Below are positions 1,528 to 62,633 of a DNA stretch of 64,000 bases, one piece after another. This stretch comes from Candidatus Uhrbacteria bacterium RIFCSPLOWO2_01_FULL_47_17 (GTDB taxonomy: Bacteria; Patescibacteriota; Patescibacteriia; UBA9934; GWF2-40-263). The stretch lies in the NCBI GenBank assembly GCA_001791305.1, contig MGEI01000003.1, positions 13,926-77,925 of the forward strand. Reading direction: 5' to 3'. The notes beneath the pieces were generated by a model. The model was not told the DNA's origin and did not search any database. It saw only the letters and a list, made by a program, of their open reading frames with translations. Within the stretch, counting starts at the first letter, position 1, and each line of letters opens with the position of its first letter. The translations under genes and the position numbers were made by a program.

Positions 1528-1809
1528 ATGATTCAAAGTTTTTCTGACAAAGAAGCAAAAAAGATTTTCGAACGAGAATATTCTGCAAAACTTCCAACAG
1601 ATATTCAGAGAATCATTTTACGCAAACTCCTCATGTTACACGCAGCGAACTCAATCAATGACTTACGTGTTCCACCTGGAAATCGTTTAGAACGATTGAA
1701 AGGAAATCGCAAAGATGAGCACAGTATCCGAATTAATCAACAATGGAGAATCTGTTTTGTTTGGACGGAAGGTTGTGCTCATAGCGTTCTTATTCAGGAC
1801 TATCACTAA
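1528..1809 (+). CDS. higB: HigB toxin (RelE/ParE superfamily, plasmid-maintenance killer)
   Basis: 93 aa; IQSFSDKEAKKIF...LRVPPGNRLERLKGNRKDEHSIRINQQWRICFVW matches the HigB family signature; followed by an HTH antitoxin. Confidence 0.85.
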   Translation: MIQSFSDKEAKKIFEREYSAKLPTDIQRIILRKLLMLHAANSINDLRVPPGNRLERLKGNRKDEHSIRINQQWRICFVWTEGCAHSVLIQDYH

Positions 1810-1819
1810 CATTTATTCT

Positions 1820-2116
1820 ATGAAAAAAATTTCCATTATTCATCCAGGAGAAATTCTCTTAGAGGAATTTTTGAATCCTCTCAAGTTGTCCCAGTATCGT
1901 GTTGCAAAAGATTTGAGTGTTCCACCGCGACGCTTAAATGAAATCGTTCGAGGACAACGTGCAATCTCGGCAGACACCGCATTGCGATTGGGAAGATATT
2001 TTAAAATGTCTCCCGAATTTTGGATGAATCTCCAAAGTCAATACGATTTAGAAAAACAACATGCTCTTCTTGGAAAAAGACTTGAGCGTGAGGTTTTACA
2101 ATCCGCGTTTGCGTAA
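1820..2116 (+). CDS. higA: HigA antitoxin, XRE-family HTH
   Basis: MKKISIIHPGEILLEEFLNPLKLSQYRVAKDLSVPPRRLNEIVRGQRAISADTALRL is a typical HigA HTH; ATG at 1820, in frame with ORF 1715..2116. Confidence 0.8.
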   Translation: MKKISIIHPGEILLEEFLNPLKLSQYRVAKDLSVPPRRLNEIVRGQRAISADTALRLGRYFKMSPEFWMNLQSQYDLEKQHALLGKRLEREVLQSAFA

Positions 2117-2165: not shown

Positions 2166-2684
2166 TCACGACGCGTTGTCGTGAGAGAAGTGGGTGAGCT
2201 TGAATGCGCGCCAGCGAGTGACGGCACTTGCTTTGAGTTCGCTTGCGAGGCGCCAGGCGGTCGACGCTTTCGCGTAGGCGACAACTTTGTGTTTCCAGAT
2301 CGTGAAGCGGTCATAGACGAAGGCGAACCAGGCGAGTTGTAGGAGGGTCGGTTTCGTGAGCGTGAACAGGCGCGCGACGATGGCGGTGCCGATGATCTTT
2401 GCTATCACGATAATCGCGAGACCAAGCATCGCGTGATCGCTTGCGATCAGCTTGAGTGCGAAGAGTTTGATGGGGAACAGGGTTGCTCCCGGAATGGCAA
2501 ACACCACGAGGGCGGGATACGGCGGAAGTTTGACGATCAGTCGCTCGATGTGGCGAAAGATCGGGAGCTTTGCGAATCGAGACGCAAGTCGCTGTAGCGG
2601 TTCCCAGCCCCATTCTTCGAACAAGATGATGAGAGCGATGATCCAGGACGCGATCGTCTTTACGGCTTTGAGCAATGTTTTCAA
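2166..2684 (-). CDS. Hypothetical integral membrane protein
   Basis: 172 aa with several hydrophobic helices; TTG start preceded by an AGGAG SD; overlapping Arg-rich ORF 2311..2742 judged a shadow. Confidence 0.45.
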   Translation of the reverse strand: MKTLLKAVKTIASWIIALIILFEEWGWEPLQRLASRFAKLPIFRHIERLIVKLPPYPALVVFAIPGATLFPIKLFALKLIASDHAMLGLAIIVIAKIIGTAIVARLFTLTKPTLLQLAWFAFVYDRFTIWKHKVVAYAKASTAWRLASELKASAVTRWRAFKLTHFSHDNAS

Positions 2685-2824
2685 GGTTCACTCCTGTGCG
2701 TCGAGAAACATCGACCAAGAAGAATAGCGCATTTTTGGTCATGCGTCAATGGATTGACGGGATGGCTTTTTCGTGCTATCTTGTAGCGTTCACAGGCACA
2801 ATTTTGTGCAGTAGGGAGGTGAAC

Positions 2825-3946
2825 ATGTTTGGTCGTTTTGTGTTGATTCCTTGTGTTTTGCTCGCGATGGCGGGCTGTCATGCAAAGTTTTCACATACGC
2901 CCGCTGAATCGAGCAGCGATTCTCCGATGCTCGTGCAGATTGATATTCCTCCTGAGTCCACAAAGACGCAAGCGGATACTTGTGACCATCCGGTTCATGT
3001 GAGGAATATGGATTCGACCGATGAGGAAGAAGTTGCGATCGCCATAATGGAATATGCGGACGTTTCGTTGCATCACCCGTCGTGTTATTCCGAGACGGAT
3101 CGTTCGCATTTTGCTTTGCAACTTGCGCGTGCCTATGTGCGCGAGATGGTTGAAGAACAGCCGGGTGCATTGACTCATGAAATGCAATGGAAGAAGATCA
3201 GGTCGTTGTTCGCCTTGCAGCCTCAACTTCCTGTTGCGAAGACCGCGCTTGAGCTCATGGATCTGTATCAGTCGATCGACAGCGAATTGACGCGGACGTT
3301 TGTGGAGGCATACGCGCGATTGAGTGCGATTGAACCCACGAAAGAAATGGCTGAATCCATTCGACAGGTGAAAGAAGCGATCGTGCGTGAAGCGCTCGTG
3401 TTCACTTATCGCCATGAGGCTGATCAAAATCGTGAACTCGATGCCGTGATCGGCGCATATCCGTATGATCGCGTGCAAGATCGAATCGCGTTTGCAAAGT
3501 CGGTGATCGATGCGTTTGATTGGCAAGGTTTTCGTGCCATGCCGCGTACGTTTTTGGATGAGGTCGGCTTGAATTCCGCGGGTCGCACAGAAGTGCTTGT
3601 GTATCTCGTTGCACCAAATGTTGACGAGGACGAGGATTACGCAGATGCCCTCGATCGCCGCGCACAGACCTATGTGAACGCGGGGTATGACGTAACGGAA
3701 GTGAACGCGGCTGCCGTGACAGATTTGATCGAAAGCGATCAGTTCGCAGACGCACTTGCGTATGCGCACAAACATTACGACGAAGGACAGATCGGCAACC
3801 TTGAAACGCGGCTCATGAAAATCATGCGCTCGCGCGGCTGCTACTCCATCATGGAAAACCCAGACGGCCACAAATACCCGCTTTACGACTTCAAACGCGG
3901 CTGCGATGACCCCGTGGATGATGAAGAATCGGACGAAAACGAATAG
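2825..3946 (+). CDS. Lipoprotein, function unknown (acidic C-terminal tail)
   Basis: ATG at 2825 with GGGAGG SD; signal MFGRFVLIPCVLLAMAGC with lipobox; no known domain. Confidence 0.5.
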   Translation: MFGRFVLIPCVLLAMAGCHAKFSHTPAESSSDSPMLVQIDIPPESTKTQADTCDHPVHVRNMDSTDEEEVAIAIMEYADVSLHHPSCYSETDRSHFALQLARAYVREMVEEQPGALTHEMQWKKIRSLFALQPQLPVAKTALELMDLYQSIDSELTRTFVEAYARLSAIEPTKEMAESIRQVKEAIVREALVFTYRHEADQNRELDAVIGAYPYDRVQDRIAFAKSVIDAFDWQGFRAMPRTFLDEVGLNSAGRTEVLVYLVAPNVDEDEDYADALDRRAQTYVNAGYDVTEVNAAAVTDLIESDQFADALAYAHKHYDEGQIGNLETRLMKIMRSRGCYSIMENPDGHKYPLYDFKRGCDDPVDDEESDENE

Positions 3947-3970
3947 ACTCTCATATATTAGGAGGCAGAG

Positions 3971-5284
3971 ATGCGAGACATTCTTTCACATTGGCAGATT
4001 TTCGAAGCTGTAACAGATTTGCGTAACACAGGAAAGCAGATCTTTCTTGTGACAACGGGTTCAACAGGCGGTCTTCTCGAAGCCCTTTGGGGACCGTTTC
4101 ACGCATCGAATCAACTGTTCGGACATCGCTTCTGCTATGCGCAGGAGGATCTCGCCGAGTTTCTCGGATTCAAGCCGAAGAAGTTCTGCTCGGAAGAGAC
4201 TGCGGCGCAGATGGCCGCACACGCCTACTGGCACGGCATGGAACTCGCGGTTCGCCGCAGGATCGCTGTCCCGGATGTGATCGGCGTCGGAATGACCGCG
4301 GTCGTGTCGAGTGATCGGCATCATCGGGGCGAAGAGCGCGTGTGCATCGCCGTCCGAACGCGAGAGAGCTTTCACAAGTTCGAAGCAACGTTCGAAAAGT
4401 GTGCGGAGGATACCTCGCCCGAGGATCGATATGCCGCGCGCATCGAACAGTCGCAACTCGCGGATGTGATGACACTCAACGTCATCCTTGATGCGGGTGG
4501 AATCACACAAATTCCGTTTCCAAAGAAGTGTGCACGCAGTTTCGACTTCATCGATTTTTCTGACAAGACGATCGTCGAACAGCTCGTTCCTTCTTTCTGG
4601 GCAAGCACCGAGAGTGGTATGCACATGGAAGTCGGCGCGGCTGGATGGCTGAAGGGATGCGACGAGGCGACCGATCGGAGGATCGAAGCCGCGCTCGCGA
4701 ATCCGCCGATTTACGGACGTGTGTCCTGGGATGGTCGTGATGAATATCGCGAACCGAATCTCGAAACGGATCTCAAGAATGCCGTGCTACTTCCAGGTTC
4801 GTTCAATCCGCTTCACTACGGGCACATCGCCCTTGCACGAACGGTTGAGAAGATGACAGGGAAGCGTGTGATCTACGAGATCACGAACACGCATCCATTC
4901 AAGCCGACGCGAACGCACACAGAAATGATGCAGCGTGCGGATCAGTTCCAGTTCTTTGCACCCGTGATCCTTTCGGACGACGCGCCGCTTTTCATCGACA
5001 AGGCGCGCAGATACCCGGGTGTGCCCATGGTCATGGGCGCGGACGCGATGCAGGCATTGCTCGACGTTCGTTACTACGACAATAGTTTGCAAAAGCTCTT
5101 CGACGTCCTCGACGAATTCCGTCGCCTCGGCACGGTGTTCTACGTGAATGGTCGCGATGTGAAGGGCATGTTCCTCACCCGCGACGATGTCGCTGTTCCA
5201 AAACGATACGAAGATCTCTTCCTCACCGTCAGCGGACGCGAAGACATCTCGTCAACGCAATTGCGAAACAAGACTCAAGCGTAA
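3971..5284 (+). CDS. Two-domain NAD-salvage fusion: N-terminal CinA-C/PncC-like (NMN deamidase) domain plus C-terminal NadD-like nicotinate-nucleotide adenylyltransferase domain
   Basis: N-terminus LVTTGSTGGLLEAL...LGF...SEETAAQMA...IGVGMTAVVSS...RVCIAV resembles the PncC/CinA-C consensus; C-terminus GSFNPLHYGH (H/TxGH motif) and terminal ISSTQLR match NadD/NMNAT motifs. Confidence 0.55.
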   Translation: MRDILSHWQIFEAVTDLRNTGKQIFLVTTGSTGGLLEALWGPFHASNQLFGHRFCYAQEDLAEFLGFKPKKFCSEETAAQMAAHAYWHGMELAVRRRIAVPDVIGVGMTAVVSSDRHHRGEERVCIAVRTRESFHKFEATFEKCAEDTSPEDRYAARIEQSQLADVMTLNVILDAGGITQIPFPKKCARSFDFIDFSDKTIVEQLVPSFWASTESGMHMEVGAAGWLKGCDEATDRRIEAALANPPIYGRVSWDGRDEYREPNLETDLKNAVLLPGSFNPLHYGHIALARTVEKMTGKRVIYEITNTHPFKPTRTHTEMMQRADQFQFFAPVILSDDAPLFIDKARRYPGVPMVMGADAMQALLDVRYYDNSLQKLFDVLDEFRRLGTVFYVNGRDVKGMFLTRDDVAVPKRYEDLFLTVSGREDISSTQLRNKTQA

Positions 5285-5418
5285 CCACAACTCGGTTGCG
5301 CTTTTTTATTTGTGTATGCTAAGCTTTTTGTACAACTTTATTCCTTCTGCCACAGGTGATTCGTGGCAGCGTCCCCTGGAGAACAACCTCGCAGGGAGTT
5401 TGACGTATGGAGAAAAAG

Positions 5419-20830: not shown

Positions 20831-23800
20831 TTGAATAATTTTGTTCCATTTTTTATGTTTGATTCTTTTTTTGAAAGAAGTGTTCGACAAGCTTCAAAGA
20901 CCCTGAAGTTTTGTGCGACGCTTTTTTTCGTCGCTGCAACATTCTTGTGGAGTGTGTCACCACTCGGTTTGTTGTCGGCGCGTCCGGTGTTTGCGGCATC
21001 TGCCGTCACGGTGTCAAATGGCACCATTAACGCAAACTTTCCTGGTGCGCTTATTCAAGCAAGTTCGCCAGCAACGTCCATTGCAAAGGTCAGTGTTACC
21101 GCGTCAGCTGCGAGTAAAACACTCACTTCCGTCCAAGTAAACTTTTCTGGATCGGGATTTGCAACGTCTGACCTTTTGGATCTTGCAACAGACGACGCGT
21201 CCGGAGTCGCCTTATATAATGATGCGGGTGGAACACCCGGATCTTTTGATGGCACAGACGCGGTTGTCACCCTTGCAAGCGGTCCAGCATTTTCTGGAAC
21301 AAACCTTGTTTTGACGCCGGCAACTCCCGTTGCACTTACAAGCGGCACAGCCGTCATTTTTCACGTTGTTATCAAAACAGCTGCTGGAATTACCCATAAC
21401 GATGTTATTGATGCAACCGTTCCAATCAACGGAGTTGTGACTTCAGATGGCAACGGCCCAACATCTGCATTTGTGGTGAACAATTTGCGTGCAGATACCG
21501 CTGCGGCAACCATTCAAAGCGTTTCTGGTTTCGCAGGTTCTCCAACATTAACCGTCAAGTTTTCAAAGCCAGTTCAAAAAGTTGGTATCGGAAACTTGAG
21601 TTTTGTTGGTGCCGGTGATCCATTTACGTATGTTGATGGTGGTGGTGGTGCAACCGCTCAAACCATTGTTGCTGTTCAACATACAGCAGGACAAGATTTC
21701 GCCACAGTGAACATGTCTACAAATCTTGATGCGGAAGATGTAGATGGATCGCCAGCGACCCTTGCTGCAGGGACAAACAAAATTGCAGACATGGCAGGAA
21801 ACGCACTCGGGACTTCAACGGTAAACATTGGAAGTCCGCTTGGAATTTCAACCGCAAACGTTCAGCTTGCGACAGTTGCTGCTGTTTATGATGCAAACTC
21901 CACTCTTGTGACATTTGAAGCCGTTGGTGGAACCTCACCTTATAGCTTTACGGCAAACAGCGCTGGGGATACAACCATTCTTTCCAATTTAGGCCTTTCA
22001 CTTGCAACAAACGGAAAACTGACAGGAACTGTTGCAAACAGGACAGGAACACATCAAGTAAACATTAAAGTAACAGACAGTACAGGAACTCCACTTACCT
22101 CAACACGTCTTTACAACATTAACGTCGCAACGTCTGGTGGAGCTGTTCCGGCCATCTCAGGTTTGAATCCTGCAGGAGGAGCGCAAAGTGCTTCCGCATT
22201 ATCCATAACGTTAACAGGACTCAACACGTCGTTTACCGGAAGTTCACCCGCTTCTTCGGTTTCTATTGCGCTTCCTTCTGGAGCATCTGAACCAAACGGC
22301 ATTACAGTTGGTGCTATTACAGTAAATAGTGCGACTTCGATCACATTTCCGGTCACAATCGCAGCAAACGCAACAACAGGACCTCGTGATGTTCAAGTTA
22401 CAACCGGATCTCAAACCGTTACCATGCCAAATGGATTTAACGTGTTTGCAAGCGGCGCATCTGGACTCACCTTGTTGCTTCCATCGGACGCATCCACGGG
22501 AAATCCAATGCCACCAACATTTCAATTCAACCCATCAAGCCATGCAGATACAACCGGATATCTCATAACGGTTGCGACGACTTCCAGTTTTTCAACGGTC
22601 GCGTGGCAATACATCTTTCCAAAGCCAGCTGATGCTCAAAATTCAAATGGCAGCCATTGTTCTACAACAAACTGTAATTTGACCTATGGTGCGGGAAATT
22701 TTTCGATCATGCGCCAACCAACGGCTCTTTCTCCGGACACGGTCTATTACTGGAAGGTGAGTACCTATTCAGGAAACTTCATCTCGATCAATCCGGACAC
22801 ATCCGTTCCTCTTGAGACAACAACGGTCCGTTCATTCAGGACAACTGCTTCCGTGCTTGATGCCTCCGCACCAAACATCATGCATCGTCCTGCGTTTAGT
22901 GCAACCGCAAGTACAAACCTTGTGTTGTTTGCACGTATTACGGATGATAAGACAACCGTGAGTACAACTCCAGCGCTCAGTACAAAATTATTTCATTGCC
23001 AAGGAGCAGCTTGTACACCAACAACCCAAGTAATCGGCACCTCTGTCGGGTCTGGATATTTCAGTTTCACCATTCCTAGTAACGCGATTGGAATTGCTGG
23101 AACCATTACACGTTATTACTTGCAAGCAACAGACAGTACCAATACCGCCAACTTTAAAAAGGCAGACGCGTCGCCATTTCAGCTCACATCTGCGGCGGCA
23201 GGTGCTTTCTCGATCGCGGGAACCGTTAAAGATTCCACCAATACCTGTAGCGCTGAAATTCAAGGTGCAAAGGTTTTTGCAGAAGGAAGCGGATTTTACG
23301 CAACCACAGACGGAAGCTGTGCATTTACCATTTCCGGATTGCCAGCTGGAACCTATGATTTAGTTGCGGTCATGGATGATTTTGCTGACCGAATGATTTC
23401 AAGTATTCCTGCCGGATCAACAGCAATTCCATTTAAGCTTACGAATGGAGTAGCAGGTGGAGCAGGGGGAGATATCACAAAACCTCGCGTCAAATTTTCA
23501 GGTCCTATGGATGGCATGACAAATATGCCAGGAGGGGACACGAACTTTAAGGTTTCTGTTGTATTTGATAAGGCGATGAGTCAATCGTCCATCAACGCCA
23601 TGGACCTTACGGTCAACGAAGTAAATCTCACAACAGGAGCTCTTACAGACATCACAAGCACAAAAGGTTCTTGGACCTATTACAATTCAGCTCCTTCGCC
23701 AGCAGTGATGGGAATTCCAAATGAATCCAACATGGCTGTTTGGGCGTTTACGGGAGGAAACACATTTGGTGATAATAAAACCATTGCCGTTGTTGCAACT

Positions 23801-26800
23801 TCTGGTGTGACAGATACTGCTGGTAACGCCATTCAAGGAAACCAATCTGATGGAAGTTACGTCTTTACGTTCACCACGAGTTCAACCGCCACTTTTTCCG
23901 GAAATACGCTTACGGGTGGAACATTTGGTTCCGGTGCCTTTGTTGCTCCACGCGTAAATGGAATTTCACCTGCTCCTGGATCAATAGATGTTGCACGTAA
24001 CCGAAAAGTGGTTATTGATTTTTCCGTCCCTATGGCAGATGACGGAGGTGGGTACACATTGAAGAGTACGGTAAAACTGTTTTCCGTCTCAGGAACAACG
24101 GAAACAGATGTAAGCTCAACTGCCATTGATACAGTGACGCTCAACTCCGCAAAGACGAGCGCAACCGTTTCGCTTTTGAGCACGTTTAATACGGGTTTGT
24201 TTGCGGCAAGCACGAATTATCGTGTGAAGATCATGGGAACAGCAAAGGCTGCAAATGGAATGACACTCGCTCCGCCAGCAAGTGCGTCCACAACGGTCTC
24301 GTTCATGGGTGACTTCAAAACGAGTGCGACATCAGATACAGCTGCTCCAACCATTGTTGGAACATTTCCGGATACAGACGCAACGAGCGTTCCTGTGAAC
24401 GTTGGTGCGGTAAGTGTTGGATTTAGTAAAGACATGGATGTTTCCACACTGACATCAAGCAATATTTATCTTTCTGTCGGTTCAACAACTGTAAACGGAA
24501 CATTGGAATATCGTCCTCTTGAGCGCCAAGCGTACTTCTTACCAAAATCCGCATTGAGTGGCGCAACGACATACACATTAACGCTTTCAACGGGTGTGAA
24601 AGCAGCAAACGGAGTTGCTCTTGCATCAGCTGTAACGCGTTCCTTCACAACAGGGGTAGCGGATAGCACAGCGCCATCCATTTCCTTCATGAACGCAGAT
24701 GATTATTCCATCGCGATTACGTTCTCGGAGCCGATGAATGCCGCAAAAGCAACAGATACATTGAATTGGTCAACATCCGTCATTAATCCAGCCGTTTACA
24801 ATGTATTGAAATATGGAGCTGCAGGATTCAACGTAAGTTCAGCTGGAACAGCCGTTGCTTTGACGAGTGCTCAATTTAAGTATGACGCTGTTACAAACAC
24901 GGTCGTTATTTCTGGCTTGAGTTTGACTGCAGCAATCGGTCAAGAATTGTATGTGTCCATGGATATTTCTGGAACACCATCAAGTGGTGCACAAATCGCT
25001 CTTGATTTGTCCGGAAATGCGATTACATCTGCAGGAAACTCCTCACGTGCAACGTTGAAAAATAGCGCGACAACAAAAGGTGCGCTTGGACCAATGGCCT
25101 CTTCAACGGATGCGTCAACAACGGCTGGACAATTTATTCCAACCAACTTCTCAACCAACACCTTCGGTTTCGCTCCGCCAGTTGAAGTGAAGCCAATGAC
25201 AACAGGTGCGGGAAAAATAACAACATACGCTGCCCGTATCCCAATTTCCACTCAAATTGCAGCTGGCGGAACAGCTGTTCTGACATTTCCAGCTGGGTTT
25301 GATGTTTCTCTCGCAAGCCAAGATATCAATCACCCAATGCGTACAGACTTGAATGGTCCGGGCTCCGGAACGATTACATTTAGGTGTTTAACAAATGTTG
25401 CAGGTGGAAAATCTTGTGCATCAGGCGCAAACAGCGATGATACGGGCGCTGCTCAAGGTGGACTTGCCGATGACGGAGTTGTTGTAAACACAGCAGCCAG
25501 ATCTGTTACGGTTTATCTTTCCGCGGCAACAAACAGCACAGGACATGATTTTCTTGAGATTTTTCTTGCTGGAATCAAGAACTCAACTGTTCCAAAAGAT
25601 TCCTCAACATCTGGTTATACGGTTGACATTAAGACAAAGAGCTCAACAACGGTTCATGAGTCTTTGACCTCCGCACCATTCTACATTCAAGGTGTAACAG
25701 GAACCGCTTACACATTGACCGGAACCATCACAGCAACATCGAACGACCAAACGGGAACCATGAAGGTTTTCCTCATGTCTCCAATGACGGGTCCAATGGA
25801 AACAACCTCCGCAGATTTTGCTAGTGGTGCAACGGCAGCGTTTTCGTTCACAAACTTGTCAGCAGGGGACTACATGCTCATGACAGAGCAGTCGATTACG
25901 CTTGGAAACCGTGAGTATGCAGGAAAAACGTTTCCGGAACGCGTTGTCATCAGCGAAGCGGCAGATATTGCAAACAGTGGAGATAATGACGATACCATTC
26001 CTTACAACTTCACCCTTGCAAGTAACACAAGTGGAATTCCTGTCACCATCTCTATTGATGGACCTAGTGCAGAGCCGGTAGATGTTTTTGCGATGTCCCC
26101 TTCAGGATTCAAAGTCAAACAAGTTACGCTTGATTCAAATGCAGGTGCACAAAACGTCACTCTGTATGTTCCTGCTACAGGAACATATCAAATCGGTGTA
26201 GGTCCTCAGATGCCAAAAGGCATTATGAGTGGTCCGCCTCCTGCTCCGTCTTACTTACCACCACGTCCGATTGAAGTTAAAGCTACTGCAGGATCGCCTA
26301 ATACATTTGTGGAAAATAGCGGAACGGCAAATGATGGAACATTGGTCTTCACTCTCACAGCTTCAAACAAATCAATTAAAGGACTCGTTCAAGACGCTGC
26401 TGGAAAAGTGATGGCAAACGCTGAAGTTTTTGCCTACTCACCAAATGGCGGAATGGGAACACGCGCACAAGCAGATTTGGCAGGTGCGTTTACCTTGAAC
26501 GTTGTGGACGGAAGCTACATTGTTGGAGCATTCATTCCAGGTATGCCGCCTTCAAAGGAAGTTGCTGTGGCGGTTACTTCACATGCAACCACTTACCTGC
26601 TCATCAATGGCGCAACAACAGCCATCACACCAGCGGCAGCGGCAACATCGTTTATTCTCAAAGTTGCAAAGCCTGATTACACGATTTCAGGAACGGTGAC
26701 GGACGGAACAAACGTTATAACGGGCGCATCTATTTATGCTTACAGAACAGATGCTCCTGGACACGCCAACGCACAAACAGATTCTTCTGGAAATTACACA

Positions 26801-29518
26801 CTCTATGTGAGCACCGGAACATGGAAAGTTGGAGTATTCGTGCCACAATACGGACAACTCACAGAAAAAGACGTTGTGATTACAACAGCAAATGCGACAA
26901 GTCAAAATTTTGCTCCTTCTTCGACGGGAACATTCTATTCCGTATCAGGAACCGTGACATCAAACGGTGCTGCTGTTACGGGGGCATTCGTTCGTATCAT
27001 GGGAAATGCCACGTTTAATGAAGCTGTTACGGGAGTAGACGGAACCTACAGCGTGAAAGTCCCGTCTGGAAATGGATATGTCGTGCGCGCGTTTGTTCCT
27101 GGTGTAGGAGATACACCGGAACTCGCTGCCTTTAACGTGACGGCAGACGTAACAGGAAAAGATATCACCGTTGGAACATTGAATACAGTAACTTTCGTGC
27201 TTTCAACCGCCGCAACTGCCATGATTGAAGCGTTCACATCAGATGGACGAGGAAATCGTATTCAAATCAATAACACAACATCCGGAACGATGTCATTGCC
27301 AAACGGTGATTACACCATCCGCGCAAACATTCAGGGAGTAAACATTGGTCTCACAGATATCGCAGCGACCAGTGGATCAACAGTTTATAGCTCAACAACA
27401 GGAATCGTAACGGTGAACGGAGCAGAATCCCTTACCATTACCCTTCCAACACAAAGAACGATTACGGGAACCGTTCGTGATAGTGCAGGACTTTTGGCTG
27501 ATGCGTGGGTTGAAATCAGTAGTGCAACATCTGGAATCCGTTTTGGAACAAAGAGTGATGTAAATGGAGCCTTTACGCTTAAGGTGGCAGATTCAGCAAC
27601 CGCTTATCGTCTGAACGCCATGAAGCCAGGATATTTCCGTGAGCCAAGCTCCCTTACCGTCAATGGATCAGATCCAGCGGCACAGGTCCTCACGTTAACA
27701 TCCGCAACAACAACCATTACCGGTCAAGTTCTGGTTGGATCTAACCCTGTCGCAAACGCCTTCGTACGTGCGGAAAAACAAGGAGGTGGATTTGCAGGAA
27801 CACAGGCAGATGCAAGCGGAAATTATACGTTGTCTGTTACGTCCGGCGTTTGGAGTGTTTATGCTGTCGGTCAGGGATATGCAGAAAAAGCATTTGCTTC
27901 AAACCCAATTGACGTCACTGCTGGATCCGTCACAGGAAAAACTATTACGCTGTCAACGACCGTGACGCTTGATCCACCAAAATCGAAGTCCATTACGCCA
28001 TCCTCAGGAGGAACCTTAGAAGATACAACCGCAGGAATTTCCTTAAACATTCCAGCGAATGCCTTTGGTTCCGTTTCTGAGGCTGCATCACTTACTTCGA
28101 CAGAAACAAGCAACATCCGCCGAACAGATTCTGCAAGACCTGTTAAAGGAATTGAAATTAAAGCGACGGATTCAGACGGAAATGCGATTACAACATTGAA
28201 TAATGACGCGACCGTCGAAATGACGTTAACACAGGCTGAGCTTGCTGCAACGGCTTCTGACTCAGACGCATCCATCAACACGATGGCGGAAGTCGACAAG
28301 TTGCGTATGGCCTACTTTGACGAAACAACCGCGAACTGGGTGACTCTTGAAACGACAAGAACATGTGAAAACGCAAGTGGTGTCGTGATTACAGATGCAA
28401 CGGCATTAGACACTGCCGTAGAATTTACAGATAATTGTGCTGTACTCAAAATTGCTGCGCTCACAGATCACTTTTCTCTCTACGCCCCAGTTGTCTCAAC
28501 AAGTTCTGAAGCCCCATCAACTCCAAGTGGATTTGCAGGATCTTCAAATTCTACATCTTCCGTAAACTTGTCATGGACTGTCGTGTCGGATGCAACTTCA
28601 TATGATATTTATCGAAGTAGTTCATCAAGTGGAACATTCACACGTCTTGGAAGTGAACCAACAGTCAGTTCTGGATCAACGGTCACATATGCCGACACAG
28701 GTCTCACATCTAGCACAGCATATTATTACAAGATCACCTCATTAAATACTTCGGGCGAATCCGCTTCGTCGAGTGTGATTTCCGTCATAACAGTAGGCGC
28801 AAGTGGTGGAGGTGGTTCATCAGGTCCTGTCACCCTTCCATCAACAACTACAACGACTACGACAACAACAACCGTCGCACCAACGACAACAACACCTGTC
28901 GCAGCTGCACCAAAGGTTGCTGAGGTTGTAACGGTTAAAGCAAGTCCGGTTGCACAGTTGATTCAAAATCCCGCAAAGGCGAGTGAACTTATCGCTGCGC
29001 TTGGCCTTACAACCAAACCAGCAGACGAAAAGAAATATTCAGCTCTCATAAAGTCTGATGCTCTCGCATTCAAAGTGAAATTAACCGCTGAGCAACAGAC
29101 CACGATTACAAACTTCGTCACATACGGTGCCTCTGCCGAAACCGTAAAACTCGGTGCGGGTGAACGTCGTGCGGTCGTTCGTGATTATCTTGAGACCGTC
29201 GGACGCTCAGAAGTGATCTGGGAAGATGTCCAGCGCATGGCAACAGGTCAAAAATTAGTCAATCGCAATTTGGCAAAAGAACAAGCGCAAGTAAACCGTG
29301 TGCTCGCAAACTTTAAGCACATGGTTGGCCACGCGCCAAACTTTAAAGTGCCAGCAGAAGATATCGCTTGGAACACCATGATGTATCGCATCCGTTTTCC
29401 ACGTGATCTTACTGTAGAAAAACAAGGAATCGTAGAATTCAAAGGGCTCTACAAGCGCAATCCAAGCACACCAATGGAATGGTCCATTGTGCGCGCTCTC
29501 GGATACGCCTTGAAATAA
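20831..29518 (+). CDS. Giant secreted surface protein (2,895 aa) with Ig-like, CarboxypepD_reg/PEGA-like and FN3 repeats, poly-Thr linker and distinct C-terminal domain
   Basis: N-terminal signal peptide; Thr/Ser/Ala/Gly-rich beta-repeat modules; repeated GTVTDG...GNYTL motifs; FN3-like LSWTVVSDATSYDIYRSS...YYYKITSLN; TTTTTTTTTT linker. Confidence 0.7.
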   Translation: MNNFVPFFMFDSFFERSVRQASKTLKFCATLFFVAATFLWSVSPLGLLSARPVFAASAVTVSNGTINANFPGALIQASSPATSIAKVSVTASAASKTLTSVQVNFSGSGFATSDLLDLATDDASGVALYNDAGGTPGSFDGTDAVVTLASGPAFSGTNLVLTPATPVALTSGTAVIFHVVIKTAAGITHNDVIDATVPINGVVTSDGNGPTSAFVVNNLRADTAAATIQSVSGFAGSPTLTVKFSKPVQKVGIGNLSFVGAGDPFTYVDGGGGATAQTIVAVQHTAGQDFATVNMSTNLDAEDVDGSPATLAAGTNKIADMAGNALGTSTVNIGSPLGISTANVQLATVAAVYDANSTLVTFEAVGGTSPYSFTANSAGDTTILSNLGLSLATNGKLTGTVANRTGTHQVNIKVTDSTGTPLTSTRLYNINVATSGGAVPAISGLNPAGGAQSASALSITLTGLNTSFTGSSPASSVSIALPSGASEPNGITVGAITVNSATSITFPVTIAANATTGPRDVQVTTGSQTVTMPNGFNVFASGASGLTLLLPSDASTGNPMPPTFQFNPSSHADTTGYLITVATTSSFSTVAWQYIFPKPADAQNSNGSHCSTTNCNLTYGAGNFSIMRQPTALSPDTVYYWKVSTYSGNFISINPDTSVPLETTTVRSFRTTASVLDASAPNIMHRPAFSATASTNLVLFARITDDKTTVSTTPALSTKLFHCQGAACTPTTQVIGTSVGSGYFSFTIPSNAIGIAGTITRYYLQATDSTNTANFKKADASPFQLTSAAAGAFSIAGTVKDSTNTCSAEIQGAKVFAEGSGFYATTDGSCAFTISGLPAGTYDLVAVMDDFADRMISSIPAGSTAIPFKLTNGVAGGAGGDITKPRVKFSGPMDGMTNMPGGDTNFKVSVVFDKAMSQSSINAMDLTVNEVNLTTGALTDITSTKGSWTYYNSAPSPAVMGIPNESNMAVWAFTGGNTFGDNKTIAVVATSGVTDTAGNAIQGNQSDGSYVFTFTTSSTATFSGNTLTGGTFGSGAFVAPRVNGISPAPGSIDVARNRKVVIDFSVPMADDGGGYTLKSTVKLFSVSGTTETDVSSTAIDTVTLNSAKTSATVSLLSTFNTGLFAASTNYRVKIMGTAKAANGMTLAPPASASTTVSFMGDFKTSATSDTAAPTIVGTFPDTDATSVPVNVGAVSVGFSKDMDVSTLTSSNIYLSVGSTTVNGTLEYRPLERQAYFLPKSALSGATTYTLTLSTGVKAANGVALASAVTRSFTTGVADSTAPSISFMNADDYSIAITFSEPMNAAKATDTLNWSTSVINPAVYNVLKYGAAGFNVSSAGTAVALTSAQFKYDAVTNTVVISGLSLTAAIGQELYVSMDISGTPSSGAQIALDLSGNAITSAGNSSRATLKNSATTKGALGPMASSTDASTTAGQFIPTNFSTNTFGFAPPVEVKPMTTGAGKITTYAARIPISTQIAAGGTAVLTFPAGFDVSLASQDINHPMRTDLNGPGSGTITFRCLTNVAGGKSCASGANSDDTGAAQGGLADDGVVVNTAARSVTVYLSAATNSTGHDFLEIFLAGIKNSTVPKDSSTSGYTVDIKTKSSTTVHESLTSAPFYIQGVTGTAYTLTGTITATSNDQTGTMKVFLMSPMTGPMETTSADFASGATAAFSFTNLSAGDYMLMTEQSITLGNREYAGKTFPERVVISEAADIANSGDNDDTIPYNFTLASNTSGIPVTISIDGPSAEPVDVFAMSPSGFKVKQVTLDSNAGAQNVTLYVPATGTYQIGVGPQMPKGIMSGPPPAPSYLPPRPIEVKATAGSPNTFVENSGTANDGTLVFTLTASNKSIKGLVQDAAGKVMANAEVFAYSPNGGMGTRAQADLAGAFTLNVVDGSYIVGAFIPGMPPSKEVAVAVTSHATTYLLINGATTAITPAAAATSFILKVAKPDYTISGTVTDGTNVITGASIYAYRTDAPGHANAQTDSSGNYTLYVSTGTWKVGVFVPQYGQLTEKDVVITTANATSQNFAPSSTGTFYSVSGTVTSNGAAVTGAFVRIMGNATFNEAVTGVDGTYSVKVPSGNGYVVRAFVPGVGDTPELAAFNVTADVTGKDITVGTLNTVTFVLSTAATAMIEAFTSDGRGNRIQINNTTSGTMSLPNGDYTIRANIQGVNIGLTDIAATSGSTVYSSTTGIVTVNGAESLTITLPTQRTITGTVRDSAGLLADAWVEISSATSGIRFGTKSDVNGAFTLKVADSATAYRLNAMKPGYFREPSSLTVNGSDPAAQVLTLTSATTTITGQVLVGSNPVANAFVRAEKQGGGFAGTQADASGNYTLSVTSGVWSVYAVGQGYAEKAFASNPIDVTAGSVTGKTITLSTTVTLDPPKSKSITPSSGGTLEDTTAGISLNIPANAFGSVSEAASLTSTETSNIRRTDSARPVKGIEIKATDSDGNAITTLNNDATVEMTLTQAELAATASDSDASINTMAEVDKLRMAYFDETTANWVTLETTRTCENASGVVITDATALDTAVEFTDNCAVLKIAALTDHFSLYAPVVSTSSEAPSTPSGFAGSSNSTSSVNLSWTVVSDATSYDIYRSSSSSGTFTRLGSEPTVSSGSTVTYADTGLTSSTAYYYKITSLNTSGESASSSVISVITVGASGGGGSSGPVTLPSTTTTTTTTTTVAPTTTTPVAAAPKVAEVVTVKASPVAQLIQNPAKASELIAALGLTTKPADEKKYSALIKSDALAFKVKLTAEQQTTITNFVTYGASAETVKLGAGERRAVVRDYLETVGRSEVIWEDVQRMATGQKLVNRNLAKEQAQVNRVLANFKHMVGHAPNFKVPAEDIAWNTMMYRIRFPRDLTVEKQGIVEFKGLYKRNPSTPMEWSIVRALGYALK

Positions 29519-31011: not shown

Positions 31012-31590
31012 ATGGATCCGATCCCTGCAGCAAAAAAAGAACAACCGAAAGAAGTTGTTCAGCCACAATCGGAAGGTGTTGTTGAACAACCATCCGCACC
31101 GGAAGTTTCTCCGGTTGTTGAGGTTGAGGGAAAAGGCGTAGAGGTGGCAGAGGTCACAGAGGCGACAGAGGCAGCAAAGACGGCAGAGGAAGTAAAAGAA
31201 CAAGAGCAGATGGTTGAGCAGCCGCAAGTTGTTGAACAAACACCTCCGTCACCACCGCCCACACCAGTCGTTGTCGCAAAACCTGTCAAAGATCGTTTCA
31301 CACAAGAGTTGGAAGAAGTCCTGGAAGAGGATTTGAAAGAACTGTACATGGCCATGCCGAAAGAAAAACAGGCGGAGTTTCGTCAGAAAGGCGAAGAAAC
31401 CCTTTCGGCCGTTCGTGAGCTTGTGCGCGCCGCACATGTCAATGTCAAAAAAATTTTTCAATTGATCCGCGACTGGCTTAAAATGATCCCAGGCGTGAAT
31501 CGTTATTTTCTTGAACAAGAGGCAAAAATAAAAACAGACAAAATTATTTTGGTCTCGGAAGAAGAAAAGAAACGTGGATCACAACTTTAA
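31012..31590 (+). CDS. Acidic Glu/Pro/Val-rich hypothetical protein
   Basis: Low-complexity acidic N-terminal half, helical C-terminal half; directly upstream of and overlapping the ATPase gene. Confidence 0.3.
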   Translation: MDPIPAAKKEQPKEVVQPQSEGVVEQPSAPEVSPVVEVEGKGVEVAEVTEATEAAKTAEEVKEQEQMVEQPQVVEQTPPSPPPTPVVVAKPVKDRFTQELEEVLEEDLKELYMAMPKEKQAEFRQKGEETLSAVRELVRAAHVNVKKIFQLIRDWLKMIPGVNRYFLEQEAKIKTDKIILVSEEEKKRGSQL

Positions 31591-36571: not shown

Positions 36572-36693
36572 AGGAATGAACGCGGAAAATATATCAATGA
36601 TTGTCGAAGGAGTCAATCGTGAATCGTTTCTTGACCTTTCGATTTTTTTCCCTTATGATCTCCTCTCGTTCCTTTCATGAGCGAGGAGGTTTC

Positions 36694-37389
36694 ATGAATC
36701 CATTGTTGATTCCGTATCCAGAGACGGTCGTTTTCATTCGTCATGCAGAATCCGAAGGGAACGTTCGTACACGAGAGGAACAACGTTGTTTTCCCGTTGG
36801 AACGAACGCGTACAAACTTTCGCCTCGTGGGCGAGAGCAGGCACGGATCACGGGAGAACGTGTTCGGGAGTTGTTTCCGAAACCGGATCGTGTGATCCGT
36901 TCGTATTATGCACGGACGAATGAGACGGCTCGCATCATCTATCCAGATCTTGAGATACGTGAGGATCCGCTTCTTGCAGAGCGTGATCGTGGTATTTGGA
37001 CGAATGCGACAGAGAAAGAGGTGTCGGTCTGTATGCCATGGGAAATTCGACGGCGTGATGAACAAGGCGTTTATCATTATCGCGCTTCCGGTGGCGAAAA
37101 CATTCCAGATGTTGAACGCCGGGTTCGTGAATTTCGTCGCAGTATTCGTTTTAACTATTCTGGCAAAACGATCGTCGTTGTCGGCCATTCGCAATGGATT
37201 CTGCTTTGGCAGAAGATTGTGCACGATTGGCCTATGGAAGAAACGATGCGCCGATTCATAGCCGGTGAATGGGTGGAAAATGCCTCAATCCTTATCTATC
37301 ACAACACCTGGAGCGAAGAATTCGGCAAGCACATTTTGACTCACGACCCCGAAACGGACTACGAAGTGCCATGGAAAGACAAACTCTGA
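36694..37389 (+). CDS. Histidine phosphatase superfamily protein (phosphoglycerate mutase-like; CobC-like role possible)
   Basis: FIRHAESEGN (RHG-type catalytic motif), later GHSQWI (His); ATG at 36694 with GAGGAGG SD. Confidence 0.65.
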   Translation: MNPLLIPYPETVVFIRHAESEGNVRTREEQRCFPVGTNAYKLSPRGREQARITGERVRELFPKPDRVIRSYYARTNETARIIYPDLEIREDPLLAERDRGIWTNATEKEVSVCMPWEIRRRDEQGVYHYRASGGENIPDVERRVREFRRSIRFNYSGKTIVVVGHSQWILLWQKIVHDWPMEETMRRFIAGEWVENASILIYHNTWSEEFGKHILTHDPETDYEVPWKDKL

Positions 37390-37981: not shown

Positions 37982-38064
37982 TCCACGCTTTTTTGTTTGA
38001 CGTATTTTCCCCTTGTGATACCTTGCCACGTGGCGCGTTCGAGAGATTCGCGCATGAGGTTTAC

Positions 38065-49077: not shown

Positions 49078-49096
49078 TCCGTTGGGTTTTCGTTTT
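49066..49096. terminator. Bidirectional terminator hairpin CCCAACGGAtaaTCCGTTGGG with flanking A/T runs
   Basis: 9-bp perfect stem; A6 upstream, T-run downstream; lies between the convergent methyltransferase and the minus gene. Confidence 0.5.
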
Positions 49097-62623: not shown

Positions 62624-62633
62624 ACGTTGATTC

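What the first reader, a model, noticed from the sequence alone, without database searches (positions are those of the whole stretch)
3971..5284. Predicted bifunctional PncC-like NMN deamidase / NadD-like adenylyltransferase fusion (two consecutive NAD-salvage steps in one protein)
Residues 1-150 match the CinA-C/PncC consensus (LVTTGSTGGLLEAL, SEETAAQMA, IGVGMTAVVSS, RVCIAV). The last ~170 residues carry the NadD/NMNAT nucleotidyltransferase motifs GSFNPLHYGH and ISSTQLR. PncC makes NaMN from NMN and NadD adenylates NaMN, so a fusion would channel NMN to NaAD. I do not know this architecture as a described family. A 120-aa middle segment is unassigned.
Basis: partly seen in the sequence, partly recalled or inferred. 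Interest (0 to 1): 0.6.

Follow-up and report, generated by a model that had tools for sequence, protein, structure and literature searches.

The report
PncC-like domain fused to NMNAT-like adenylyltransferase
This gene encodes a member of a large, uncharacterised bacterial protein family that joins a look-alike of the NMN-deamidating enzyme PncC, which lacks that enzyme's essential catalytic lysine, to an adenylyltransferase domain resembling the NAD-making enzymes NadD/NMNAT, so the proposed "two NAD-salvage steps in one protein" is only half supported.

Summary
It has an AGGAGG ribosome-binding site and a terminator-like hairpin. Both domain assignments hold. Residues 1-180 adopt the CinA-C/PncC fold (Foldseek E 1e-6). 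Residues 263-437 form an HxGH/ISSTxxR nucleotidyltransferase whose closest sequence and structure relatives are NadD and NMNAT, not PPAT, CitC or TagD.

The functional reading is only partly supported. A gap-free alignment to E. coli and Agrobacterium PncC puts Leu61 where the essential catalytic Lys sits. That position is never Lys in 195 family sequences. The Ser nucleophile position holds Thr/Ala/Ser. The phosphate-binding residues (Ser46, Tyr56, Arg157) are kept.

The C-domain forms its own clade: members score 150-236 bits, canonical NadD 27-58. It fails every NadD equivalog cut-off.

The architecture is common but uncharacterised, with more than 1,100 50%-identity clusters at E<=1e-30. 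It has no conserved gene neighbours. The C-domain also occurs alone. The same window encodes a NadM-type NMNAT.

Best reading: a pyridine-mononucleotide adenylyltransferase with a ligand-binding, probably non-deamidating PncC-like module.

The parts
3960..3965 (+). Ribosome-binding site AGGAGG, 6 nt upstream of the ATG
   Evidence: Read directly from the sequence
3971..5284 (+). Complete CDS, 437 aa, stop codon included
   Evidence: ORF list. An identical protein, P0001, and 80-63% identical homologues exist in public metagenomes.
3971..4510 (+). N-terminal CinA-C/PncC-fold domain (aa 1-180)
   Evidence: Foldseek matches to CinA structures at E 1e-6 to 1e-4. Family profile against 2a9s/4ct8 at E about 1e-3. 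30 of 52 relatives hit PF02464.
4055..4060 (+). Thr29-Gly30, at the positions of the PncC nucleophile Ser and the oxyanion-hole Cys (AtCinA S31-C32, E. coli S29-C30)
   Evidence: HMM alignment to 2a9s. Gap-free alignment to E. coli PncC. In the family, position 29 is T/A/S and position 30 is invariant G.
4100..4108 (+). His44-Ala45-Ser46, equivalent to PncC block P-II G(A/S)S, which binds the phosphate
   Evidence: Ser46 is invariant. Position 44 is Gly in more than 90% of the family and His in the window's clade.
4136..4153 (+). Tyr56...Leu61, equivalent to PncC block P-III YxNxxK. Tyr is kept and the catalytic Lys is replaced by Leu.
   Evidence: The role of the block is described in PMC3855486 and PMC5384747.
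4295..4339 (+). Thr109 (equivalent to PncC T105) followed by the family-specific basic loop (S/T)DRx(K/R)(R/K)GxxR, aa 114-123
   Evidence: Column counts
4439..4441 (+). Arg157, invariant, equivalent to the PncC phosphate-binding R145
4511..4756 (+). Middle segment (aa 181-262): a clade-specific insertion plus a conserved N-terminal extension of the C-terminal module. Model confidence is lower here (pLDDT 57-80).
   Evidence: Alignment A1, model, stand-alone C-domain proteins that retain the extension
4757..5281 (+). C-terminal HIGH-type nucleotidyltransferase domain (aa 263-437), nearest to NadD/NMNAT
   Evidence: PF01467 at 33.9 bits. Profile against the PDB: NMNAT1 1.6e-7, B. subtilis NadD 1.2e-6, S. 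aureus NadD aligned over its full length. The top 8 Foldseek matches of the domain model are all NadD/NMNAT.
4796..4825 (+). GSFNPLHYGH, the (H/T)xGH ATP-binding motif
   Evidence: G276 and H285 are invariant; S277, F278, N279, P280, H282 and G284 are kept in at least 90% of sequences.
5036..5077 (+). GAD...RYY (aa 356-369). Asp358 is invariant. Tyr368/Tyr369 align with the pyridine-stacking Trp of NMNAT1 (W169) and NadD.
   Evidence: HMM alignments to 1kku and 1kam. The stacking role of the Trp is from my own knowledge of the NMNAT/NadD structures.
5246..5266 (+). ISSTQLR, the second ATP-phosphate-binding motif of the superfamily
   Evidence: S428 and R432 are invariant.
5277..5313 (+). Intrinsic-terminator-like hairpin (10-bp stem) followed by a T-run; ends the transcription unit before uvrB
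   Evidence: This is a consensus scan; the number of sites found is not above the shuffled expectation.

Best explanation
The gene encodes a two-module enzyme from a large, uncharacterised bacterial family.

The C-terminal module is a HIGH-superfamily adenylyltransferase. I infer that it uses ATP, through the intact HxGH and ISSTxxR motifs, to adenylylate a ribonucleoside 5'-monophosphate carrying an aromatic base. The most likely substrate is a pyridine mononucleotide (NMN and/or NaMN), giving NAD or NaAD plus PPi.

The N-terminal module is a diverged PncC/CinA-C domain. It keeps the pocket residues that clamp the 5'-phosphate of NMN/NaMN (Ser46, Tyr56, Arg157, plus Thr109). It has lost the Ser/Lys catalytic dyad: Thr/Ala replaces the Ser, and Leu or another non-basic residue (Met, Phe, Thr, Gln and a few others) replaces the Lys. 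I therefore infer that it binds a mononucleotide without deamidating it. It would then serve as a substrate-capture or allosteric sensing module for the adenylyltransferase, not as a second catalytic step.

Shown: the folds, the motif states, the size of the family and its separation from NadD. Inferred: the substrate identity, the non-catalytic role of the N-domain and any coupling between the two sites.
For: N-domain fold. Foldseek matches CinA structures at E 1e-6 to 1e-4, and the family profile hits 2a9s and 4ct8.

N-domain catalytic state. The HMM alignment to 2a9s keeps a constant register from residue 29 to 66, and so does a gap-free 43-residue alignment to E. coli PncC. They give S31->T29, C32->G30, S48->S46, Y58->Y56, K63->L61 and LG->LG. 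Position 61 is L/T/M/F/Q/I/Y in 52 sequences and L/M/F/T/Q/V/I/N in 143 further representatives, never K. Position 29 is Ala in 8/52 and 17/143. S46, Y56, G120 and R157 are invariant or nearly so. S31A and K63A abolish AtCinA activity without destabilising the protein (PMC5384747). CinA paralogues with changed active-site residues are inactive (PMC3855486).

C-domain. PF01467 is above its gathering score. The best PDB profile hits are human NMNAT1 at 1.6e-7 and B. subtilis NadD at 1.2e-6, S. aureus NadD aligns over its full length, and PPAT aligns only over the first ~60 residues. The top 8 Foldseek hits of the domain model are all NadD/NMNAT, with TMq 0.52-0.60. Tyr368/369 align to the pyridine-stacking Trp.

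Module coupling. The fusion is found in Patescibacteria, Planctomycetota, Chloroflexota, Latescibacterota, Gemmatimonadota, Verrucomicrobiota, SAR86 and Alphaproteobacteria. It covers 1,129 clusters at E<=1e-30. The full-length model has pTM 0.88, which suggests a fixed arrangement of the two domains.
Against: No substrate has been tested, and the specificity of HIGH nucleotidyltransferases cannot be read reliably from sequence.

The C-domain fails every NadD/NMNAT equivalog cut-off. It resembles known structures only moderately (TM 0.5-0.6).

Gene neighbourhoods give no NAD-related support. Across 107 neighbours in 29 loci, no Pfam family occurs in more than 3 loci.

The same genome already has a NadM-type NMNAT, so a second NMN adenylyltransferase is not obviously needed.

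The N-domain carries a family-specific basic loop (R116, K/R118, R119, R123). This loop could mean a different, more highly phosphorylated ligand, or a replacement catalytic base.

Thr29 could in principle act as a nucleophile in the roughly 85% of members that have Thr or Ser.

The C-domain also exists without the N-domain, so the N-domain is dispensable for its core activity.
Confidence: 0.5

Rival explanations
1. This is a true bifunctional enzyme: the N-domain deamidates NMN to NaMN using a non-canonical catalytic set, such as Thr29 with a base from the R116/K118/R119 loop or from the partner subunit, and the C-domain adenylylates NaMN to NaAD.
For: Both domains belong to the right superfamilies. 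The NMN phosphate clamp and Thr109 (equivalent to T105) are kept. Thr or Ser is present at the nucleophile position in about 85% of members. Fusing consecutive steps makes metabolic sense. JGI pipelines label some members 'PncC'.
Against: The Lys that acts as general base in both proposed PncC mechanisms is absent from all 195 sequences examined, and K63A is inactive (PMC5384747). Position 29 is Ala in 25 of 195 sequences. The PncC GPxGG ribose loop and Glu30 are lost. The window protein does not reach PF02464 even at E<=10. No NadE, which would be needed to turn NaAD into NAD, was seen in the 64-kb window, although that is weak evidence. A NadM-type NMNAT that would use NMN directly is present.
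Confidence: 0.15
2. The family acts outside pyridine-nucleotide metabolism. The C-domain adenylylates, or transfers another NMP to, a different phosphorylated metabolite. The repurposed CinA-like pocket binds that metabolite or a polyphosphorylated ligand.
For: The C-domain is a clade of its own: 150-236 bits for members against 27-58 for NadD. It falls below all equivalog cut-offs and has weak hits to PPAT and RibF-like models. The N-domain has gained several conserved Arg/Lys residues. In L004 and L005 the gene directly precedes UbiD-UbiA-UbiX-PHP, UbiX lies 4 kb away in L014 and L015, and a PNPOx-like flavoprotein gene sits directly upstream in L007.
Against: The best full-length sequence and structure matches are consistently NadD/NMNAT. 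An aromatic residue sits at the pyridine-stacking position. The N-domain's only known relatives bind NMN/NaMN. The UbiD/UbiX association is limited to a few related contigs and is not seen across 29 loci.
Confidence: 0.25
3. The protein is mainly regulatory or a decayed remnant: a nucleotide-binding protein with no significant catalysis in either domain.
For: Inactive CinA paralogues are common (YdeJ, YfaY, fungal CinA; PMC3855486). No operon context links the gene to a pathway.
Against: The catalytic motifs of the C-domain are invariant or nearly so across phyla: G276, H285, K311, R322, K344, D358, R395, S428 and R432. The family is under clear purifying selection across more than 1,000 clusters. 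The gene is intact, with an RBS and a terminator-like site, and it is retained in a small CPR-type genome.
Confidence: 0.08

Closest known systems
PncC / CinA-C NMN deamidase (E. coli YgaD/PncC, Agrobacterium AtCinA 2a9s, T. thermophilus CinA 4ct8; Pfam PF02464)
   Same: Same fold. Same phosphate-binding residues (G/A-S block, Tyr, Arg) and Thr of block P-VI. Conserved MA..A helix and Gly120.
   Different: The Ser/Lys dyad is not conserved (Thr/Ala and Leu). Glu30 and the GPxGG loop are lost, and there is a new basic loop. The protein is below Pfam detection on its own. The domain is fused C-terminally to a nucleotidyltransferase, not N-terminally to a COG1058/MocF domain.
Catalytically inactive CinA paralogues (E. 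coli YdeJ and YfaY, fungal CinA; PMC3855486)
   Same: CinA-fold proteins with changed active-site residues. Fungal CinA likewise keeps the Tyr but not the Lys.
   Different: YdeJ and YfaY have lost the phosphate-binding blocks P-II and P-VIII. This family keeps them strictly, which argues that ligand binding is retained. None of those paralogues is described as fused to an adenylyltransferase.
NadD (NaMN adenylyltransferase) and eukaryotic NMNAT1-3
   Same: HxGH and ISSTxxR motifs, a Lys in the position of the PPHK motif, GxD followed by an aromatic residue, and Arg of the RpG motif. Best sequence and fold matches.
   Different: Only 14-20% identity. Scores 27.8 bits against the 112-bit TIGR00482 cut-off. 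Forms a separate clade. Has a conserved ~40-aa N-terminal extension and usually a PncC-like domain.
Multidomain NAD enzymes: CinA (COG1058 ADP-ribose pyrophosphatase + PncC), NadM-Nudix, NadR
   Same: Fusion of two NAD-metabolite-handling modules in one polypeptide.
   Different: The domain combination is different. In those proteins both modules are catalytically competent. Here the PncC-like module lacks its known catalytic base.
NadM-type (archaeal) NMNAT, encoded elsewhere in this window at 37472-37981
   Same: HIGH-superfamily adenylyltransferase of NAD metabolism.
   Different: It is a single 169-aa domain with a GRFQPLHNGH motif and passes its NCBIfam cut-off (129 against 127 bits). The fusion's C-domain profile scores it at only 15.6 bits, so the two are not close paralogues.

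Membership tests
PncC / NMN deamidase (CinA-C, PF02464) | Match to Pfam PF02464 above threshold | tested here: not met
   No hit for residues 1-269 even at E<=10, and none for the full protein. 30 of 52 relatives give weak hits, best 4.7e-6.
PncC / NMN deamidase (CinA-C, PF02464) | CinA-C three-dimensional fold | tested here: met
   Foldseek against the PDB: 21 CinA chains at E<=1e-3, best 1.3e-6, TM on the target up to 0.69, from a model with pLDDT 89.8.
PncC / NMN deamidase (CinA-C, PF02464) | Block P-I AESCTGG with the nucleophile Ser (AtCinA S31, E. coli S29) | tested here: not met
   The aligned residue is Thr29. In the family it is T40/A8/S4 and T116/A17/S9/N1. Glu30 is also not conserved. 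Alignments.
PncC / NMN deamidase (CinA-C, PF02464) | Block P-III YxNxxK with the general-base Lys (AtCinA K63, TtCinA K301) | tested here: not met
   Tyr56 is conserved, but the Lys position is Leu61. It is never Lys in 52 + 143 sequences. The register is fixed by flanking GxS, Y and LG anchors without gaps.
PncC / NMN deamidase (CinA-C, PF02464) | 5'-phosphate clamp: G46/S48, Y58, R145 | tested here: met
   S46 and R157 are invariant and Y56 is 51/52 and 142/143. Position 44 is Gly in more than 90% of sequences but His in the window protein.
PncC / NMN deamidase (CinA-C, PF02464) | Block P-VI (S/T)G(I/V)AGPxGG | tested here: not met
   Only the leading Thr109 is kept. The rest is TAxVx(T/S)DR. 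Block definition from PMC3855486.
PncC / NMN deamidase (CinA-C, PF02464) | NMN to NaMN + NH3 activity | not testable with these tools
   Needs an enzyme assay.
NadD / NMNAT (NaMN/NMN adenylyltransferase) | (H/T)xGH and ISSTxxR ATP-binding motifs | tested here: met
   GSFNPLHYGH at 276-285 and ISSTQLR at 426-432. G276, H285, S428 and R432 are invariant; H282, G284 and S427 are kept in at least 90% of sequences.
NadD / NMNAT (NaMN/NMN adenylyltransferase) | Score above the curated equivalog cut-off (TIGR00482, PRK00071 models) | tested here: not met
   TIGR00482 gives 27.8 bits against 112.45. All PRK00071 sub-models score 15-26 bits against cut-offs of 150-329, and the matches cover only about 50 residues.
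NadD / NMNAT (NaMN/NMN adenylyltransferase) | Closest solved structures are NadD/NMNAT over the whole domain | tested here: met
   The top 8 Foldseek hits of the C-domain model are NadD/NMNAT, with 179-196 aligned columns and TMq 0.52-0.60. The profile aligns to S. aureus NadD over 8-173/2-162.
NadD / NMNAT (NaMN/NMN adenylyltransferase) | Aromatic residue at the pyridine-stacking position after the GxD motif | tested here: inconclusive
   Tyr369 aligns to NMNAT1 W169, and Arg367/Tyr368 align to the B. subtilis NadD W-Y pair. At this level of identity the register is uncertain by 1-2 residues.
NadD / NMNAT (NaMN/NMN adenylyltransferase) | Adenylylation of NaMN or NMN | not testable with these tools
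   Needs an enzyme assay or complementation.
Pfam PF01467 CTP_transf_like (HIGH nucleotidyltransferase superfamily) | Match above the gathering score | tested here: met
   33.9 bits against 21, residues 273-433 covering profile positions 1-132 of 133. 51 of 52 relatives also match.
PPAT / CoaD (phosphopantetheine adenylyltransferase) | Equivalog score and full-length alignment | tested here: not met
   TIGR01510 gives 19.1 bits against 103.3. PDB profile matches to PPAT cover only the first ~60 residues, and PPAT structures rank below NadD/NMNAT.
Known anti-phage defence or phage protein families | Match to PADLOC or PHROGs models | tested here: not met
   No hit in PADLOC at E<=0.01 or in PHROGs at E<=0.01.

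The most novel reading that the evidence does not exclude
The family is an unrecognised class of bacterial pyridine-nucleotide (or related dinucleotide) adenylyltransferase. In it, a PncC domain that has lost its catalytic dyad but kept its mononucleotide pocket has been repurposed as a built-in NMN/NaMN sensor or substrate-delivery module. That would be a pseudo-enzyme controlling NAD synthesis. Alternatively, the pair could make a non-canonical dinucleotide. Either would add a new node to bacterial NAD homeostasis in many uncultivated phyla, including CPR bacteria.
Probability: 0.25. Interest if true: 0.65.

Novelty: new variant of a known kind. Interest (0 to 1): 0.45.

Why it matters
NAD salvage enzymes are well mapped in model bacteria. 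This two-domain family is widespread: Patescibacteria, Planctomycetota, Chloroflexota, Latescibacterota, Verrucomicrobiota, SAR86 and others, with more than 1,100 clusters at 50% identity. It has no curated model, and I found no published characterisation.

Automated pipelines already label some members 'PncC' or 'PPAT'. The residue analysis here shows the PncC label is probably wrong.

If the C-domain is a genuine NMN/NaMN adenylyltransferase, it is a distinct clade that metabolic reconstructions of uncultivated bacteria currently miss. If the N-domain is a dead-enzyme sensor, it would resemble the dead Nudix domain of the NrtR regulators (from my own knowledge), where an NAD-metabolite pocket has been turned into a regulatory module.

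For the scan itself, the lesson is that motif-level resemblance gave the right folds but not the catalytic state.

Tried and rejected
**Gene neighbourhood.**
- I fetched 71 loci from GTDB genomes plus metagenome contigs.
- All-against-all BLAST clustering of neighbours found no conserved partner.
- A pooled Pfam scan of 107 flanking proteins from 29 loci gave a maximum of 3 loci per family.

**UbiD-UbiA-UbiX-PHP link.** It is seen downstream in L004 and L005. tblastn shows it only in those two related contigs, with UbiX alone nearby in L014 and L015. I rejected it as general context and kept it as an unexplained note.

**Defence or phage origin.** No PADLOC hit and no PHROGs hit.

**Split genes as Rosetta-stone evidence.** L080 has a single in-frame TAA in the linker. 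L034 has two overlapping ORFs in different frames. Either could be an assembly error, so I gave them little weight.

**NAD genes nearby.**
- I looked for NadM or canonical PncC near family genes in the other loci and found none.
- I looked for NadE, PncA and PncB in the window and saw none among the roughly 35 ORFs scanned.
- A 64-kb window cannot show that these genes are absent from the genome.

**Literature.** Searches for a described PncC-NadD/NMNAT fusion found nothing.
Full report
**1. The observation**

The window contains an ATG-initiated ORF at 3971-5284 (+) of 437 aa. An AGGAGG sequence lies 6 nt upstream of the start. A 10-bp-stem hairpin with a T-run at 5277-5303 overlaps the stop codon. 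That scan matches a consensus only, and the number of sites found is not above the shuffled expectation.

An identical protein and homologues at 80-63% identity exist in public metagenomes. More distant named relatives come from Candidatus Uhrbacteria, Planctomycetia and Latescibacteria.

The window has the gene content of a small CPR/Patescibacteria chromosome. It carries the C-terminus of a class II RNR, HigB/HigA, UvrB, UvrA, UvrC, MraW, CysS, DnaX, a PBP and a Mur ligase. The order RNR ... gene ... UvrB is shared with an Uhrbacteria contig (L001).

**2. Domain assignments**

*C-terminal domain.* Pfam finds only PF01467 (CTP_transf_like), at 33.9 bits against a gathering score of 21, over residues 273-433. 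NCBIfam gives sub-threshold hits led by NadD models: TIGR00482 at 27.8 bits against a 112-bit cut-off. Weaker hits go to PPAT and RibF-like models.

*N-terminal domain.* On its own, the N-terminal 269 aa hits nothing in Pfam even at E<=10. A 52-sequence family alignment (A1) changes this:
- 51 of 52 members hit PF01467, and 30 of 52 hit PF02464 (CinA) at E<=0.1, best 4.7e-6.
- The N-domain profile (A2) hits Agrobacterium CinA 2a9s (E 1.1e-3) and T. thermophilus CinA (E 1.7e-3) in the PDB.

*Structure models.* An AlphaFold2 model of the whole protein is confident (pLDDT 89.8, pTM 0.88). Its 21 best PDB matches are all CinA-family structures, at E 1.3e-6 to 2.7e-4 with target TM up to 0.69.

A separate model of residues 262-437 (pLDDT 91.6) has NadD or NMNAT as its eight best matches: B. 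anthracis, E. faecium, M. abscessus and M. tuberculosis NadD, and human NMNAT1, with TMq 0.52-0.60. ATP sulfurylase, pantothenate synthetase and PPAT rank lower.

The C-domain profile (A3) scores human NMNAT1 best, at 1.6e-7 in two stretches that include GAD...W...ISSTxxR. B. subtilis NadD follows at 1.2e-6, and S. aureus NadD aligns over its full length. PPAT aligns only over the first ~60 residues.

Neither of its stated refutation conditions is met.

**3. The catalytic state of the PncC-like domain**

Published work defines the PncC active site as follows:
- Ser31 and Lys63 (AtCinA numbering) form the catalytic dyad. S31A and K63A are inactive without loss of stability.
- The backbone of Gly46/Ser48, together with Tyr58 and Arg145, binds the phosphate.
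- Thr105/Gly106 contact the amide (PMC5384747).
- Lys301 of the Thermus enzyme is "absolutely conserved" and is the general base in the alternative mechanism too (PMC4246079).
- The conserved blocks are AESCTGG, G(A/S)S, YxNxxK, (S/T)G(I/V)AGPxGG, KPVGTV and RxxVR. Inactive paralogues (YdeJ, YfaY, fungal CinA) differ in them (PMC3855486).

The HMM alignment of the family to 2a9s runs without gaps from the P-I block to the LG that follows P-III. The same register holds in a gap-free 43-residue comparison with the real E. coli PncC sequence, fetched from NC_000913. It gives:

| PncC (AtCinA) | Window protein |
|---|---|
| S31 | Thr29 |
| C32 | Gly30 |
| G46-x-S48 | His44-Ala45-Ser46 |
| Y58 | Tyr56 |
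| K63 | Leu61 |
| G68 | Gly66 |

Across the 52 aligned relatives:
- Position 61 is L26/T9/M6/F5/Q3/I2/Y1.
- Position 29 is T40/A8/S4.
- G30, S46 and R157 are invariant. Y56 is 51/52 and T109 is 46/52.

Across 143 further representatives, each from a different 50%-identity cluster:
- Position 61 is L105/M17/F8/T5/Q3/V2/I2/N1.
- Position 29 is T116/A17/S9/N1.
- G30, G120 and R157 are invariant.

So the general-base Lys is absent from all 195 sequences. The nucleophile position cannot be a nucleophile in about 13% of them. The phosphate clamp is strictly kept. This is the opposite pattern to YdeJ and YfaY, which lost the phosphate-binding blocks.

The PncC GPxGG loop is replaced by a family-specific basic loop, (S/T)DRx(K/R)(R/K)GxxR. 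My inference is that the domain still binds a 5'-phosphorylated nucleotide but is not a canonical NMN deamidase. A novel catalytic arrangement cannot be excluded by computation.

**4. The C-terminal domain as a clade**

An HMM of the family's C-domain scores members at 150-236 bits. It scores the canonical NadD genes recovered in the same genome scan at only 27-58 bits.

Invariant residues are G276, H285, K311, R322, K344, G356, D358, R395, S428 and R432. By position they mirror the NadD/NMNAT motifs: HxGH, the Lys of PPHK, GxD, the Arg of RpG and SxxxxR. That mapping rests partly on my own knowledge of those families.

Tyr369 aligns with Trp169 of NMNAT1, and Arg367/Tyr368 align with the W-Y pair of B. 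subtilis NadD. In the solved structures this Trp stacks on the pyridine ring (my own knowledge).

This supports an adenylyltransferase acting on a mononucleotide with an aromatic base. It does not prove the substrate is NMN or NaMN.

**5. Distribution and architecture**

A full HMMER scan of 1.84 billion cluster representatives with the N-domain profile returns 3,831 proteins at E<=1e-3, 2,806 at E<=1e-10 and 1,129 at E<=1e-30. Most of the best hits are 370-440 aa long. Of the 143 new top representatives, 90 carry the C-domain at more than 100 bits. Most of the rest are shorter than a full two-domain protein, and a few are full length.

In GTDB genomes the two-domain gene occurs in Dehalococcoidia, other Chloroflexota (Promineifilum, Ardenticatenia), Planctomycetota, Latescibacterota, Gemmatimonadota, Verrucomicrobiota, SAR86 and an alphaproteobacterium.

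Stand-alone C-domain genes of about 190-200 aa keep the ~40-aa N-terminal extension. They occur in Oscillochloris fontis, Zavarzinella formosa and other planctomycetes, with no N-domain within 10 kb.

Two apparent split genes were seen, L034 and L080. L080 is split by a single in-frame TAA. They may be assembly artefacts.

The architecture is thus common, and the C-domain can function without the N-domain.

**6. Context**

No neighbour is conserved. BLAST clustering of flanking ORFs found only lineage-level synteny. A pooled Pfam scan of 107 neighbours from 29 loci found 118 families, none in more than 3 loci and none NAD-related among the listed top 25.

The UbiD-UbiA-UbiX-PHP cluster immediately downstream in L004 and L005 is restricted to those related contigs. 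There are no PADLOC or PHROGs hits.

In the window, the upstream ORF (2675-3946) is an unannotated protein with a lipobox-like N-terminus. It is not conserved next to homologues.

One point matters for interpretation. The window also encodes a NadM-type NMN adenylyltransferase at 37472-37981, with motif GRFQPLHNGH and NF002243 at 129 bits against a cut-off of 127. This organism therefore already has an enzyme predicted to convert NMN directly to NAD. That weakens the rationale that NMN must be deamidated before adenylylation.

**7. Interpretation**

*Best explanation (confidence about 0.5).* This is a family-specific NMNAT/NadD-like adenylyltransferase. Its PncC-derived N-domain binds a (pyridine) mononucleotide but does not deamidate it, and acts as a capture or sensing module.

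*Rivals.*
- A genuine deamidase with a non-canonical catalytic set (about 0.15).
- A non-pyridine substrate (about 0.25).
- A non-catalytic protein (about 0.08).

The steps shown are the ORF, the folds, the motif states, the clade separation, the distribution and the lack of conserved context. The steps inferred are the substrate identity, the role of the N-domain and any communication between the two sites.

**8. Novelty and verdict**

I found no paper describing this fusion. PMC3855486 notes only that CinA is "occasionally fused with other domains", which it did not analyse. No NCBIfam model covers the family.

It is a new variant built from two known kinds of domain, not a new kind of system. 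It is abundant in databases, where some members are auto-labelled PncC or PPAT.

Interest is moderate (0.45). It is a good target for NAD-metabolism biochemistry and for correcting annotations.

Noticed in passing
window 37472-37981 (+): A 169-aa archaeal/NadM-type NMN adenylyltransferase (GRFQPLHNGH; NF002243 at 129 bits against a cut-off of 127). This small CPR-type genome therefore carries two NMNAT-like enzymes. The gene is flanked by a histidine-phosphatase (CobC-like, weak match) at 36601-37389 and what looks, from reading its translation, like adenylosuccinate synthetase (PurA) at 37993-39348; that ORF was not scanned against any library.
   Followed up: partly
window 39411-40391 (+): A 326-aa fusion of an N-terminal Nudix hydrolase domain with a CobA/CobO-type cob(I)yrinic acid a,c-diamide adenosyltransferase (NF004637 at 138 bits, below its cut-off). 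This is an unusual pairing, two genes downstream of the NadM-type NMNAT.
   Followed up: no
window 1528-1809 and 1817-2116 (+): A HigB-like toxin (PF05015, 78 bits) followed by an HTH_3 antitoxin-like protein: a type II toxin-antitoxin pair between the RNR gene and the finding.
   Followed up: no
window 20831-29518 (+): A giant 2,895-aa ORF with repeated CarboxypepD_reg and Big_5 Ig-like domains, probably a surface protein. Large ORFs at 45034-48498 (1,154 aa), 49095-50639 and 59144-60817 have no Pfam match at E<=1e-5.
   Followed up: no
window 61079-63773 (-), GC 0.40-0.43: A serine recombinase (Resolvase + Zn_ribbon_recom) next to a Fic/DOC protein, in the lowest-GC part of the window. This may be the edge of an integrated mobile element. 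A T4SS coupling-protein-like ORF lies at 31574-34159.
   Followed up: no
L004 8158-11841 and L005 8157-12875: In two related metagenomic contigs, the family gene is immediately followed on the same strand by UbiD, UbiA, UbiX (flavin prenyltransferase) and a PHP phosphoesterase. UbiX also lies about 4 kb away in L014 and L015. The pattern is not seen in the other loci.
   Followed up: partly
L080 82-1212; L034 9505-10480: Apparent split versions of the fusion. L080 has one in-frame TAA in the inter-domain linker, with a 170-aa N-domain gene and a 198-aa C-domain gene called. L034 has overlapping N-domain and C-domain ORFs in different frames. These may be real splits or assembly errors.
   Followed up: partly
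L024, L029, L030, L031, L033 (around position 10000 in most; 1425-2030 in L031): Stand-alone C-domain genes of this clade (about 190-200 aa, 170-186 bits to the family C-domain HMM) in Oscillochloris fontis, Zavarzinella formosa and other planctomycetes. No PncC-like domain lies within 10 kb.
   Followed up: partly
window 2675-3946 (+): A 423-aa ORF ending 25 nt before the finding, with a lipobox-like N-terminus (LAMAGC) and an acidic C-terminal tail. It has no Pfam, NCBIfam or PADLOC match and is not conserved next to homologues of the finding.
   Followed up: partly
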